Assembly (NCBI RefSeq): GCF_057098645.1
Contig: NZ_CM169472.1
Strand: one strand, 5' to 3'
Length of the DNA stretch: 64,000 bases
Below the pieces are notes generated by a model. The model made no database searches and had not been told where the DNA came from. It worked only from the letters and a program-made list of their open reading frames with translations. Below are positions 10,561-24,085 of this stretch, one piece after another. The position numbers and the translations under genes were made by a program. How positions within the stretch are numbered: the stretch's first letter is position 1; every line of letters starts with the position of its first letter.

Positions 10561-10644
10561 TTATTCAATAAACTGACGGATCAGTTCCAGCAGCGCGATT
10601 AGCGCCTTAAGAACGATGAGAACTTTATCGAGAAAAGTTTTCAT
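10561..10644 (-). CDS. Candidate type I toxin, 27-aa TisB/DinQ-like small membrane peptide (MKTFLDKVLIVLKALIALLELIRQFIE)
   Basis: Hand-translated minus-strand ORF ATG(10644)...TAA(10561); GGGAG SD 6 nt upstream; amphipathic hydrophobic helix; core ALIALLELIR matches my recollection of DinQ; below the 60-aa cutoff of the ORF track. Confidence 0.55.
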   Translation of the reverse strand: MKTFLDKVLIVLKALIALLELIRQFIE

Positions 10645-10869
10645 CCGTTGCTCCCTTAAGGGAGAAAGACAATCACAGCTTACCCTTACGTTGCCTGTAA
10701 CTATGATTTTCTTCATGTGCTAGATGAGGACTGCCTCTCTCCAAATTAGAGCACCAGAATCAGCACCACCTGTATCCTGACCAGGACTTAAAAGTACTTT
10801 TCCGCACTGCGGTAATCCCTTGAGGCAGTATCACTACTAGCGTCGGGATTGTATCGCCAACATAGCTGT

Positions 10870-10898
10870 TTGAATATGTAGGCATCCTGACTTATAAT
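10870..10898 (+). promoter_or_regulatory. Near-consensus sigma70 promoter (TTGAAT-17-TATAAT) for the candidate antitoxin sRNA
   Basis: ttgaat at 10870-10875 and tataat at 10893-10898 with 17-bp spacer. Confidence 0.5.
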
Positions 10899-10904
10899 TC
10901 ACTT

Positions 10905-10990
10905 GCTAGATGAGGACTGTTTCATTTCTGCCCGGAACCACCAAGTCTTGGGCGGAAAAAATAAAAAAACCGACTGTCATGTCGGTTTTT
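10905..10990 (+). ncRNA. Candidate antisense sRNA (IstR/AgrB-like antitoxin), about 86 nt
   Basis: Starts about 7 nt after the -10; 5' end tgctagatgaggactg (10904-10919) is a direct repeat of 10718-10733, so it is complementary to the toxin 5' UTR; ends in hairpin ccgac-tgtcat-gtcgg followed by a T7 tract. Confidence 0.5.
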
Positions 10991-11055
10991 TTATATCTGT
11001 ATTCTGGTGCAACCATTCTGTTCTCACGACAATCGCCGTTTCAGAATACCGCCCA

Positions 11056-12165
<1,110 letters not shown>

Positions 12166-24001: not shown

Positions 24002-24013
24002 ACCTGAATTTAC

Positions 24014-24043
24014 TACAAAAAAAGCCACGGTATAAACCGTGGC
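24014..24043 (-). terminator. Rho-independent terminator after allE
   Basis: gccacggt-ataa-accgtggc hairpin with a T-run on the minus strand. Confidence 0.6.
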
Positions 24044-24085
24044 AAAATCCAACATAGCTAAAAATAATCAGGCGAGTGGTATGAC

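What the first reader, a model, noticed from the sequence alone, without database searches (positions are those of the whole stretch)
10561..10990. Candidate tisB/dinQ-like type I toxin–antitoxin module where K-12 carries rhsD
A 27-aa minus-strand ORF (10644..10561, MKTFLDKVLIVLKALIALLELIRQFIE) has a GGGAG SD and is a single amphipathic hydrophobic helix, the hallmark of TisB/DinQ-type membrane toxins. About 260 bp upstream on the opposite strand sits a near-consensus sigma70 promoter driving an ~86-nt transcript that ends in a strong Rho-independent terminator. The first 16 nt of that transcript (tgctagatgaggactg, 10904-10919; 19 of 21 if extended) recur as a direct repeat at 10718-10733, inside the presumed toxin 5' UTR some 75-90 nt upstream of the toxin ATG. 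The sRNA 5' end is therefore perfectly complementary to the toxin mRNA leader, the same layout as IstR-1/tisB and AgrB/dinQ. The toxin's own promoter is not clear by eye, and I saw no canonical LexA box, so SOS control is not established. I do not recall a TisB/DinQ-like locus annotated at this chromosomal position.
Basis: partly seen in the sequence, partly recalled or inferred. Interest (0 to 1): 0.85.

Follow-up and report, generated by a model that had tools for sequence, protein, structure and literature searches.

The report
A second DinQ/AgrB toxin-antitoxin cassette
This is a real small membrane-toxin gene paired with an antisense RNA, a second copy of E. coli's DinQ/AgrB system that lacks the DNA-damage switch; public genomes already annotate it and its family is described, so it is ordinary rather than new.

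Summary
The interpretation (a dinQ-like type I toxin-antitoxin) is correct. The implied novelty is not.

- **Toxin:** the 27-aa ORF scores 40.9 bits on NCBIfam's DinQ model (cut-off 30).
- **sRNA:** it scores 53.6 bits on Rfam AgrB (gathering 40).
- **Existing annotation:** RefSeq already labels the ORF "damage-inducible type I toxin DinQ" between ybbP and mnmH.
- **Frequency:** about 1,325 of 5,426 complete E. coli genomes carry the locus. The canonical dinQ-agrAB was confirmed in one carrier (O145 RM9872); a second match in the ten other carriers listed suggests the same.
- **Published family:** chromosomal and plasmid "dql" (dinQ-like) genes were described in 2016. A plasmid DqlB/AgrB pair was validated experimentally in 2025.

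The leader keeps the family's four-element switch that hides or exposes the ribosome-binding site, and the sRNA's 5' end pairs contiguously (18 bp) with element 2.

Differences from canonical dinQ:
- no LexA box (best 7.5 bits against 22.6);
- one sRNA instead of two;
- shorter pairing (20 Watson-Crick plus 6 G·U of 31, against 30 of 31);
- a peptide subtype shared with Photorhabdus and Hafnia.

The module is a 569-bp present/absent cassette that is more uniform than its flanks. 190 genomes carry a 108-bp deletion that kills the toxin, while the sRNA is almost always intact.

Interest is low.

The parts
10473..11041 (.). The whole 569-bp cassette, present or absent as one block between ybbP and mnmH
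   Evidence: Alignment with 'empty' ybbP-mnmH sites in LF82, BEN5202, MINF_1A and WB61. The junctions read GTGCA|TTTTGG and CCGTTT|CAGAAT, with only a 2-bp 'CA' ambiguity and no target-site duplication.
10561..10644 (-). Toxin ORF, 27 aa (MKTFLDKVLIVLKALIALLELIRQFIE), DinQ family
   Evidence: NCBIfam NF041472 toxin_DinQ scores 40.9 bits against a cut-off of 30. The ORF aligns with K-12 dinQ. GRAVY is 1.23 and the best 15-residue hydropathy is 2.73. The start is homologous to the experimentally defined 27-aa DinQ V start (PMC3567139).
10561..10716 (-). 51-aa ORF as called by PGAP (WP_001308457.1); probably over-extended
   Evidence: One search gives the annotation. There is no SD before ATG 10716. 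The analogous 49-aa ORF of K-12 dinQ is not the translated product (PMC3567139).
10651..10670 (-). Ribosome-binding-site hairpin: element 3 (10670-10658) pairs with element 4 (10657-10651), which contains SD GGGAG (10655-10651)
   Evidence: Palindrome I4. P(unpaired) of the SD is 0.01 in the full-length fold. This is a conserved helix with compensatory changes in the family alignment, columns 250-264.
10720..10744 (-). Element 2 plus the sRNA target in the toxin leader (mRNA nt 98-122). There are 18 contiguous pairs with the sRNA at 10720-10737, extendable to 10742
   Evidence: Direct repeat D2, exact 16-mer, duplex and co-fold, and alternative pairing with elements 1 and 3.
10822..10829 (-). 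Element 1 (ACUGCCUC, mRNA nt 13-20), which pairs with element 2 in the full-length transcript
   Evidence: MFE of the full-length mRNA pairs nt 13-20 with nt 105-112. It occupies the position of dinQ sequence 1.
10837..10853 (-). Inferred toxin promoter -10 (TACAAT, 10853-10848) and transcription start (about 10841); the 5' GCUAG (10841-10837) pairs with CUAGC (10724-10720)
   Evidence: TACAAT aligns with the conserved -10 (GTATAAT / GTATGAT) of dinQ and dql loci. The inferred start aligns with the mapped +1 of dinQ. The a/a' helix shows a compensatory U-A to C-G change. The -35 is weak and failed the consensus scan.
10516..10544 (-). Toxin mRNA terminator hairpin (12-bp stem)
   Evidence: Inverted repeat I2. 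It aligns with the terminators of dinQ and dql mRNAs and covaries.
10870..10898 (+). sRNA promoter TTGAAT-17-TATAAT, back-to-back with the toxin promoter
   Evidence: 10 of 12 matches. It aligns with the agrA and agrB promoters.
10906..10994 (+). AgrB-family antisense sRNA (about 86-89 nt): 5' pairing region, internal stem-loop, and terminator at 10961-10994
   Evidence: Rfam RF02891 AgrB scores 53.6 bits against a gathering score of 40, covering the full model. This is the same range as AgrB copies beside plasmid dql genes, 50.6-63.4 bits.
10490..10514 (+). Hairpin at the left end of the cassette, a 24/25 direct repeat of the sRNA terminator (10967-10991). It may terminate ybbP, or be a relic of a second agr copy
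   Evidence: Direct repeat D1. A terminator-like call was made on the minus strand only. It belongs to the cassette because it is absent from empty sites.

Best explanation
The region is a paralogous DinQ/AgrB-family (dinQ-like, 'dql') type I toxin-antitoxin cassette of 569 bp, sitting between ybbP and mnmH. The same genome also carries the canonical dinQ-agrA-agrB locus.

**Proposed mechanism** (inferred by homology plus in-silico folding; no experiment was done here):
1. A weak sigma-70 promoter (-10 TACAAT) makes a toxin mRNA of about 326 nt with a 197-nt leader.
2. In the primary transcript, element 1 pairs with element 2. The ribosome-binding site GGGAG is then locked in the element 3:4 hairpin, so the mRNA is translationally inert.
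3. 5' processing that removes element 1 lets element 2 pair with element 3. That opens the ribosome-binding site, and a 27-aa single-helix membrane peptide is made. When it accumulates it depolarises the inner membrane.
4. A strong divergent promoter constitutively makes an AgrB-type sRNA of about 86 nt. Its 5' end pairs with element 2 over 18 contiguous base pairs (about 23 with one mismatch). This restores the 3:4 hairpin and, as for AgrB/dinQ, probably triggers RNase III cleavage.

Unlike canonical dinQ, the cassette has no LexA operator. The toxin is therefore probably not SOS-inducible, and the PGAP product name 'damage-inducible' is a transfer by homology.
For: **Shown here**
- The peptide passes the DinQ HMM cut-off.
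- The sRNA passes the Rfam AgrB gathering score.
- The locus aligns end-to-end with K-12 dinQ-agrA in the same order and spacing. The leader is 197 nt against 194 nt in K-12.
- The -10, the +1, stem-loops SL2 and SL4, the SD hairpin and the terminator all align with five other dinQ/dql loci. 28 of 76 consensus pairs show compensatory changes. These include a/a' (U-A to C-G) and the SD hairpin (A-U to C-G) in this locus.
- Folding gives the same three states as the experimentally validated K-12 control:

| State | P(unpaired) of SD, this locus | K-12 control |
|---|---|---|
| Full length | 0.01 | 0.04 |
| 5'-truncated | 0.15-0.18 | 0.21 |
| sRNA site blocked | 0.01 | 0.02 |

- In the blocked state the 3:4 hairpin reforms.
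- Co-folding puts sRNA nt 1-18 on mRNA nt 105-122 and returns the SD to the 3:4 hairpin.
- The duplex of the 36-nt 5' end is -46.0 kcal/mol, against -23.8 ± 3.2 (minimum -38.3) for shuffles.
- Across the 7 mRNA targets tested (9 sRNAs from 7 loci), the presumed antitoxin at each locus has its longest contiguous pairing with its own mRNA (this locus: 18, against 5-15 for non-cognate mRNAs); the second agr copies (K-12 AgrA, the second IncI copy) do not. This indicates sRNA and target co-evolve.
- Population asymmetry fits toxin-antitoxin logic. The sRNA half is intact in 1,319 of 1,326 genomes. The toxin 5' half is intact in only 1,135 of 1,325, with a recurrent 108-bp deletion removing the start codon, SD and target.
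- No LexA box: the best hit is 7.5 bits, against 22.6 for the dinQ operator in K-12 and in the same O145 genome.

**From the literature**
- The dinQ/agrB mechanism (PMC3567139; PMC5066626).
- Plasmid DqlB/AgrB validated with compensatory mutations (PMC12365149).
Against: - Nothing was measured: no transcript, toxicity or rescue data exist for this locus.
- Pairing is the weakest in the family. It has 20 Watson-Crick plus 6 G·U of 31 positions, against 30 of 31 for AgrB/dinQ.
- The co-fold gain is only -16.6 kcal/mol. AgrB/dinQ gives -39.5. AgrA/dinQ gives -25.3, and AgrA does not protect against DinQ experimentally (PMC3567139).
- The sRNA's 5' end can form a weak hairpin with itself, -3.3 kcal/mol.
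- The toxin promoter has a poor -35 and failed the consensus scan. The transcription start and the processing site are inferred only.
- In the truncated fold the SD is only partly freed, because it pairs with nt 91-94.
- 14% of carriers have lost the toxin's 5' end, so the toxin is dispensable. These genomes may be one clone, so the asymmetry may reflect few events.
- The LexA matrix was built from operators recalled from memory.
Confidence: 0.8

Rival explanations
1. The cassette is a decaying relic. It is homologous to DinQ/AgrB but no longer works as a toxin-antitoxin pair: the toxin is barely transcribed or translated and the sRNA is an orphan.
For: - The toxin -35 is weak and no consensus promoter was called.
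- sRNA-target complementarity is degraded, 20 Watson-Crick of 31, with C-to-T drift.
- The co-fold gain is lower than for the non-protective AgrA.
- 190 of 1,325 genomes carry a deletion that kills the toxin.
- Strains with an IS200 insertion also exist (H21).
Against: - The ORF, SD, start codon, the four switch elements and both terminators are intact in 1,135 genomes.
- The cassette is 99.1-99.3% identical across lineages whose flanks differ by 2.4-5.8%.
- 18 contiguous pairs at the sRNA 5' end are retained and are specific to the cognate mRNA.
- The G·U-forming changes preserve pairing rather than destroy it.
- The sRNA promoter is near-consensus.
Confidence: 0.12
2. The sRNA's main role is in trans on the canonical dinQ mRNA or other targets. 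The cassette would then modulate the SOS-induced DinQ response rather than act as a self-contained module.
For: - The predicted co-fold gain with the canonical dinQ +44 leader (-16.2 kcal/mol, 18 pairs) equals that with its own leader (-16.6).
- The same genome carries dinQ, agrA and agrB.
- The sRNA outlives the toxin in the 108-bp deletion variants.
Against: - Pairing with dinQ is interrupted: the longest run is 12, against 18 for the cognate leader.
- AgrB already covers dinQ with 30 of 31 pairs.
- AgrA has better complementarity to dinQ than this sRNA, yet does not protect (PMC3567139).
Confidence: 0.05
3. The real product is the 51-aa protein annotated by PGAP (10716..10561), not the 27-aa peptide.
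For: RefSeq annotates the 51-aa form (WP_001308457.1) in many genomes.
Against: - There is no SD upstream of ATG 10716, which itself lies next to the sRNA target.
- The 27-aa start has GGGAG at 6-nt spacing and aligns with the start of all family members.
- In K-12 the equivalent long ORFs are not translated and only the 27-aa form is made (PMC3567139).
- A 27-aa record for the same gene also exists.
Confidence: 0.03

Closest known systems
dinQ-agrA-agrB of E. coli K-12 (gor-arsR intergenic region; Weel-Sneve 2013, Kristiansen 2016)
   Same: - The peptide is homologous, sharing the core ALIALLELIR and the same 27-aa length.
- Gene order is the same, with a divergent sRNA about 260-275 bp upstream.
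- The sRNA fold and terminator are homologous.
- The leader has a similar length (197 nt against 194 nt) and the same four elements and helices.
- The sRNA 5' end targets element 2.
   Different: - The chromosomal site is different (ybbP-mnmH).
- There is no LexA operator, against two in dinQ.
- There is one sRNA instead of two.
- The start codon is ATG rather than GTG.
- The peptide has 4 extra N-terminal residues, a 3-residue shorter C-terminal part, and a mid-helix Lys.
- Pairing is 18 contiguous / 20 Watson-Crick of 31, against 30 of 31.
- Nucleotide identity is only about 70% over the toxin and leader.
dql (dinQ-like) genes, dqlA/dqlB, of Enterobacteriaceae chromosomes and plasmids (Kristiansen 2016); DqlB/AgrB of pOXA-48 (validated 2025)
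   Same: - This is the category that fits best: a DinQ homologue outside the gor-ars site, with a sigma-70 promoter, a conserved leader and an AgrB-like sRNA.
- The paper states that some strains have dql genes together with dinQ.
- Five plasmid dql/dinQ-like loci tested also lack a LexA box, with best scores of 1.5-10.8 bits.
- AgrB scores are in the same range.
   Different: - It is not DqlB: the NCBIfam DqlB model scores 24.5 bits, below its cut-off of 35.
- The peptide differs from the plasmid 'MGAFIDKAI...FF' type. It is closest to chromosomal copies in Photorhabdus khanii (24 of 27 residues) and Hafnia paralvei.
- Whether the 2016 paper lists this exact locus could not be checked, because its figures and supplement are not held.
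tisB-istR-1 (E. coli)
   Same: It works in a similar way: a small hydrophobic toxin, a long inert leader activated by 5' processing, and a divergent sRNA whose 5' end pairs with the leader (PMC5066626).
   Different: There is no sequence relationship, since no TisB family hit appeared. tisB is LexA-controlled and this locus is not.
zorO-orzO (E. coli O157:H7)
   Same: It has a trans-encoded divergent sRNA with a short pairing region (18 nt, from my own knowledge) in a long 5' UTR that both inhibits and enables translation (title and abstract of PMC5397157). It is not SOS-controlled.
   Different: It is a different family. Rfam OrzO-P scores only 19.5-24.1 bits against a gathering score of 60. 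A distant zor/dinQ leader similarity has been noted on plasmids (PMC11264685).

Membership tests
DinQ/AgrB (dinQ-like, dql) type I toxin-antitoxin family | Small single-helix hydrophobic peptide homologous to DinQ | tested here: met
   NF041472 scores 40.9 bits against a cut-off of 30, E = 1.8e-10. The core ALIALLELIR is shared.
DinQ/AgrB (dinQ-like, dql) type I toxin-antitoxin family | Divergently transcribed AgrB-type sRNA upstream of the toxin gene, not overlapping it | tested here: met
   Rfam RF02891 scores 53.6 bits against a gathering score of 40, full length. It starts 262 bp from the toxin ATG.
DinQ/AgrB (dinQ-like, dql) type I toxin-antitoxin family | sRNA 5' end complementary to the leader region that contains element 2 | tested here: met
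   18 contiguous pairs, or 23 with one mismatch; cognate pairing is better than non-cognate. It is shorter and weaker than the 30/31 of AgrB/dinQ.
DinQ/AgrB (dinQ-like, dql) type I toxin-antitoxin family | Four leader elements able to pair 1:2, 2:3 and 3:4, so that the SD is closed, open, or re-closed by the sRNA | tested here: met
   In-silico only. The behaviour matches the K-12 control, and the helices are conserved with compensatory changes.
DinQ/AgrB (dinQ-like, dql) type I toxin-antitoxin family | 5' processing of the primary transcript to a translatable form; RNase III cleavage of the sRNA-mRNA duplex | not testable with these tools
   Needs primer extension, Northern blots or RNase III assays.
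DinQ/AgrB (dinQ-like, dql) type I toxin-antitoxin family | Toxicity (membrane depolarisation) of the peptide and rescue by the sRNA | not testable with these tools
   Indirect support only: the toxin 5' end is lost in 190 genomes, while the sRNA is intact in 1,319 of 1,326.
Canonical dinQ (SOS regulon gene of E. coli) | LexA operator(s) overlapping the promoter | tested here: not met
   The best site scores 7.5 bits, against 22.6 for the dinQ box in K-12 and in the same O145 genome; the training minimum was 15.4. The matrix was built from remembered operators.
Canonical dinQ (SOS regulon gene of E. coli) | Location between gor and the ars operon, with two sRNA copies (agrA, agrB) | tested here: not met
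   This locus lies between ybbP and mnmH and has one sRNA. The canonical locus is separately present at gor-arsC in the same genome.
DqlB subfamily | Match to the DqlB model (NF041473) above its cut-off | tested here: not met
   24.5 bits against a cut-off of 35. The peptide lacks the DqlB N-terminal segment.
TisB/IstR-1 | Sequence homology of the peptide and sRNA to TisB and IstR | tested here: not met
   No TisB family appears among NCBIfam hits even at E ≤ 10. No IstR hit appears in Rfam at E ≤ 10.

The most novel reading that the evidence does not exclude
The cassette is a recently acquired, LexA-independent DinQ-subtype module. Its peptide type is shared with Photorhabdus and Hafnia. It has spread by recombination into the ybbP-mnmH site of about a quarter of E. 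coli, as one alternative occupant of a site that holds rhsD in K-12 and a long insert in most other genomes. Its sRNA would also cross-pair with the SOS-inducible canonical dinQ mRNA. Carrying the cassette would then change how strongly DNA damage translates into DinQ-mediated membrane depolarisation or persistence.
Probability: 0.1. Interest if true: 0.45.

Novelty: already known. Interest (0 to 1): 0.2.

Why it matters
It matters little for discovery. Standard tools (NCBIfam, Rfam, PGAP) recognise both halves, and the dinQ-like family is published.

Its practical value is as an annotation correction and a strain-difference note:
- The product name "damage-inducible" is probably wrong for this copy, because no LexA box is present.
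- The 51-aa gene model is probably over-extended.
- No annotated feature lay under the sRNA match in any of the 30 RefSeq records listed (sampled from 1,326).
- About 24% of complete E. coli genomes, including O145:H28 and strain HS, carry two DinQ-type toxins and three Agr-type sRNAs. Work on SOS toxins, persistence or sRNA cross-talk done in K-12 does not describe them fully.

Tried and rejected
1. **Generic intergenic repeat.** Rejected. The 16-mer occurs only twice in the window, and each half of the module occurs once per E. coli genome. The REP elements at 10345-10472 are separate and lie outside the cassette.
2. **Hidden LexA box.** Rejected. The CTGTATCCTGACCAG stretch at about 10771 is the conserved SL2 of the leader, not an operator. 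The best matrix hit is 7.5 bits.
3. **Insertion or excision by recombination between the two 25-nt terminator repeats (10490 and 10967).** Rejected. Empty sites lack both copies, so the whole 569 bp is the indel.
4. **A remnant of the module at the edges of the K-12 rhsD island.** None found.
5. **Plasmid origin by near-identity.** No plasmid copy exceeds about 77% identity, apart from chromosome pieces filed as plasmids.
6. **Full-length RNAduplex energies.** Discarded as uninformative, because they ignore intramolecular structure and pair the RNAs end to end. They were replaced by the 36-nt duplex, ungapped pair counts and co-folding.
7. **Literature link between dinQ and ybbP/mnmH/selU.** None was found in the held library. 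The supplement of the 2016 dql paper is not held, so I could not check whether this exact locus is listed there.
8. **First K-12 control run.** It used the wrong GGAG as the SD. This was corrected.
Full report
**1. The observation**

- A 27-aa ORF (MKTFLDKVLIVLKALIALLELIRQFIE) runs from ATG 10644 to the stop at 10561 on the minus strand. It sits inside a longer 51-aa ORF that starts at 10716.
- GGGAG lies 6 nt upstream of the ATG.
- On the plus strand, TTGAAT-17-TATAAT at 10870-10898 matches 10 of 12 positions. It is the only promoter-like site between ybbP and the next gene.
- A 14-bp stem with a T run at 10961-10994 ends a transcript of about 86-89 nt.
- The 16-mer TGCTAGATGAGGACTG occurs exactly twice in the 64-kb window, at 10718-10733 and 10904-10919, with none expected by chance. 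The repeat extends to 20 of 22 nt.
- The sRNA is read from the plus strand and the toxin mRNA from the minus strand. This direct DNA repeat therefore makes the sRNA's 5' end complementary to the toxin leader, 74-89 nt upstream of the start codon.
- It is not a dispersed repeat. Each half of the module occurs once per genome in E. coli.

**2. What it is**

- The peptide matches NCBIfam NF041472 "damage-inducible type I toxin DinQ" at 40.9 bits (cut-off 30). It falls below the cut-off of the DqlB model, 24.5 against 35.
- The sRNA matches Rfam RF02891 AgrB over the whole model at 53.6 bits (gathering 40). It is one of only three Rfam hits in the window.
- The intergenic region is 100% identical to E. 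coli O145:H28 genomes. There PGAP annotates the 51-aa ORF as dinQ (WP_001308457.1) between ybbP and mnmH. Both the 51-aa and 27-aa forms exist in public protein collections under that name.
- The region aligns with K-12 dinQ-agrA along its whole length, in the same order and with the same spacing.
- The same O145 genome also has the canonical 27-aa dinQ next to gor, with agrA (91.1 bits) and agrB (106.2 bits).

This locus is therefore a second, paralogous copy.

**3. How it most likely works**

For K-12 dinQ, published experiments show the following (PMC3567139; PMC5066626).
- The primary transcript is inert, because sequence 1 pairs with sequence 2 and the SD is locked in hairpin 3:4.
- Removing the first 44 nt lets 2 pair with 3 and frees the SD.
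- AgrB binds nt 88-119, which include sequence 2. This re-closes the hairpin and directs RNase III cleavage.
- AgrA, with 25 of 31 complementary positions, does not protect.

I located these elements in K-12 from the SD position and mapped them onto the window.
- The family-conserved -10 aligns with TACAAT at 10853-10848, and the mapped dinQ +1 aligns with G 10841. That gives a 197-nt leader, against 194 nt in K-12.
- Element 1 is ACUGCCUC (10829-10822).
- Element 2 and the sRNA target lie at 10744-10720.
- Elements 3 and 4 form the perfect palindrome CUCCCUU/AAGGGAG around the SD (10670-10651).

A consensus fold of six dinQ/dql mRNAs recovers the a/a' helix, SL2, SL4, the SD hairpin and the terminator. 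28 of 76 pairs show compensatory changes. In this locus the a/a' pair changes U-A to C-G, and one SD-hairpin pair changes A-U to C-G.

Thermodynamic folding behaves like the K-12 control:

| State | P(unpaired) of SD, this locus | K-12 control |
|---|---|---|
| Full-length mRNA | 0.01 | 0.04 |
| After removing 20-50 nt from the 5' end | 0.15-0.18 (3:4 hairpin replaced by 2:3) | 0.21 |
| sRNA site blocked | 0.01 (3:4 hairpin back) | 0.02 |

Co-folding places sRNA nt 1-18 on mRNA nt 105-122 and returns the SD to the hairpin.

**4. Strength and specificity of the pairing**

- The 36-nt 5' end of the sRNA gives -46.0 kcal/mol with the leader, against -23.8 ± 3.2 for shuffles.
- Of the first 31 positions, 20 are Watson-Crick and 6 are G·U, with 18 contiguous from the 5' end. 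The differences from the target copy are mostly C-to-T in the sRNA, which keep pairing as G·U.
- Across the 7 mRNA targets tested (9 sRNAs from 7 loci), the presumed antitoxin at each locus has its longest run with its own mRNA; the second agr copies (K-12 AgrA, the second IncI copy) do not. For this locus the run is 18, against 5-15 for non-cognate mRNAs.
- The caveat is real. The net co-fold gain is -16.6 kcal/mol. That is well below AgrB/dinQ (-39.5) and below the non-protective AgrA/dinQ (-25.3). It also equals the gain predicted for this sRNA on the canonical dinQ leader, -16.2.
- An 18-bp uninterrupted 5' helix is within the range of validated type I pairs. IstR-1/tisB and OrzO/zorO use about 18-21 nt; this figure is from my own knowledge. 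Antitoxin function is nevertheless inferred, not shown.

**5. How it differs from canonical dinQ**

- **No LexA operator.** A matrix built from 25 remembered E. coli operators, with dinQ left out, scores the K-12 and O145 dinQ box at 22.6 bits. The best site in this cassette scores 7.5 bits, and the training minimum was 15.4. Five plasmid dql/dinQ-like loci also lack one, with best scores of 1.5-10.8 bits. The PGAP word "damage-inducible" is therefore probably wrong for this copy.
- **One sRNA instead of two.**
- **A different peptide subtype.** It has an ATG start, four extra N-terminal residues, a shorter C-terminal part and a mid-helix lysine.
- **Closest relatives.** A family-wide DNA pattern scan of one genome per species found 18 loci. 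The closest peptides are chromosomal copies in Photorhabdus khanii (24 of 27 identical, 77.6% nucleotide identity over 255 bp) and Hafnia paralvei. The P. khanii copy sits among a group II intron reverse transcriptase, a transposase-like ORF and a PIN-domain-like ORF; these ORF identities were read by eye.
- **Gene model.** The 51-aa PGAP model is probably too long. It has no SD, and the equivalent long ORFs of dinQ are not translated.

**6. Population picture**

- The toxin half is found in 1,325 of 5,426 complete E. coli genomes and the sRNA half in 1,326, always once and always on the chromosome.
- Nearly all genomes (5,415) also match at about 70% identity at canonical dinQ.
- ybbP and mnmH are close together in 1,856 genomes and far apart in the rest. 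K-12, BL21 and O157:H7 are among the latter, and K-12 has the rhsD island there.
- Four sampled short-gap genomes without the module have only REP elements. Aligning them defines the module as a 569-bp block, 10473-11041. Both terminator-like hairpins are inside it, there is no target duplication, and the junction has a 2-bp ambiguity.
- The block is 99.1-99.3% identical in lineages, including Escherichia sp. E1V33, whose flanking kilobases are only 94.2-97.6% identical. Canonical dinQ-agrAB diverges about as much as its neighbour gor, 94.4% against 94.8% in E. whittamii. This suggests recent spread by recombination rather than long residence.
- 190 genomes carry a 108-bp deletion between the 10-bp repeats GATGAGAACT and GATGAGGACT. 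It removes the start codon, the SD, the 3:4 hairpin and the sRNA site. PGAP still calls a 25-aa "DinQ" with an ATT start there.
- The sRNA half is intact in 1,319 of 1,326 genomes. This asymmetry is what a toxin-antitoxin pair predicts, but the deletion carriers may be clonal.

**7. What is known, and the verdict**

- Kristiansen et al. 2016 named dinQ-like (dql) genes, dqlA and dqlB, on chromosomes and plasmids of Enterobacteriaceae. They noted sigma-70 promoters, terminators, correctly placed SDs, the four-element leader, and strains with dql genes in addition to dinQ.
- T1TAdb predicted the matching sRNAs.
- DqlB/AgrB of pOXA-48 was shown in 2025 to be a working type I addiction module, using compensatory mutations.
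- I found no paper in the held library that discusses the ybbP-mnmH copy specifically. I could not see the 2016 figures or supplement.

It is, however, a database-annotated member of a published family. The small new points are the probable loss of SOS control, the unannotated sRNA, the over-long gene model, the cassette's present/absent nature and uniformity, and a possible cross-talk with dinQ. Interest is 0.2. My confidence is about 0.97 that it is a DinQ/AgrB-family locus, and about 0.8 that it works as described.

Noticed in passing
window 10473-11041 against flanks 9345-10344 and 11056-12055: The 569-bp cassette is 99.1-99.3% identical in E. coli lineages, and in Escherichia sp. E1V33, whose adjacent ybbP and mnmH kilobases are only 94.2-97.6% identical. 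It looks younger than its surroundings, which suggests recombinational spread.
   Followed up: partly
window 10616-10733; loci L004 and L005: A 108-bp deletion between 10-bp near-repeats (GATGAGAACT / GATGAGGACT) removes the toxin start codon, the SD and the sRNA target in 190 of 1,325 carrier genomes. PGAP still annotates a 25-aa 'DinQ' with an ATT start in some of them.
   Followed up: yes
window 10906-10994: The AgrB-type sRNA had no annotated feature under it in any of the 30 RefSeq records listed (sampled from 1,326 matches), although it passes Rfam's gathering score.
   Followed up: yes
window 10490-10514 and 10967-10991: A 25-nt direct repeat (24/25) of the sRNA terminator hairpin sits at the opposite end of the cassette, downstream of the toxin terminator. 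It could terminate ybbP or be a relic of a lost second agr copy. The origin is unexplained.
   Followed up: partly
window 10345-10472: REP-type palindromic units lie between the ybbP stop and the cassette, with partial hits to naRNA4 and ES036. Their copy number varies among 'empty-site' strains and accounts for intergenic gaps of about 58-340 bp.
   Followed up: partly
window 10870-10876: The sRNA -35 (TTGAAT) and the best candidate -35 of the toxin promoter (TATTCA on the other strand) occupy the same base pairs, so the two divergent promoters may compete for RNA polymerase. In K-12 the equivalent hexamer TTGCAA is a palindrome (read).
   Followed up: no
L007 6753-7429 (same O145 genome, gor-arsC region): The canonical dinQ, agrA and agrB are all present. 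This genome therefore encodes two DinQ-type toxins and three Agr-type sRNAs. arsR and arsB are not annotated there, only arsC.
   Followed up: partly
L025 3500-10000 (Photorhabdus khanii): The closest non-Escherichia relative of the toxin (24 of 27 aa) lies among ORFs that look like a group II intron reverse transcriptase, a Tn3-type transposase and a PIN-domain protein. That is a mobile context (ORF identities read by eye, not searched).
   Followed up: no
L017, L020, L029, L033 (contigs labelled Haemophilus, Lachnospiraceae MAG, Chryseobacterium): dinQ/dql-family leaders, some identical to E. coli dinQ, appear on short contigs of non-enterobacterial assemblies. Contamination or mis-binning is the likely cause.
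   Followed up: no
L012 962-1468 (IncI plasmid pSAN1-1727): The plasmid dqlB locus has two AgrB-like copies (59.4 and 50.7 bits) followed by a sok antitoxin RNA. This is a cluster of type I antitoxin RNAs.
   Followed up: no
hit H21, E. coli TB06052 (NZ_CM129848.1 3473688-3474857): An IS200C element is inserted inside the cassette in this strain.
   Followed up: no
window 24013-24079; 45497-45570; 43151-43170: Other features of the window are an STnc480 sRNA match (87.1 bits), a tRNA, and a sub-threshold LexA-like site TACTGTTTGTGCAAATAGTA. That site scores 14.7 bits, below the weakest training operator, and lies between two plus-strand ORFs.
   Followed up: no
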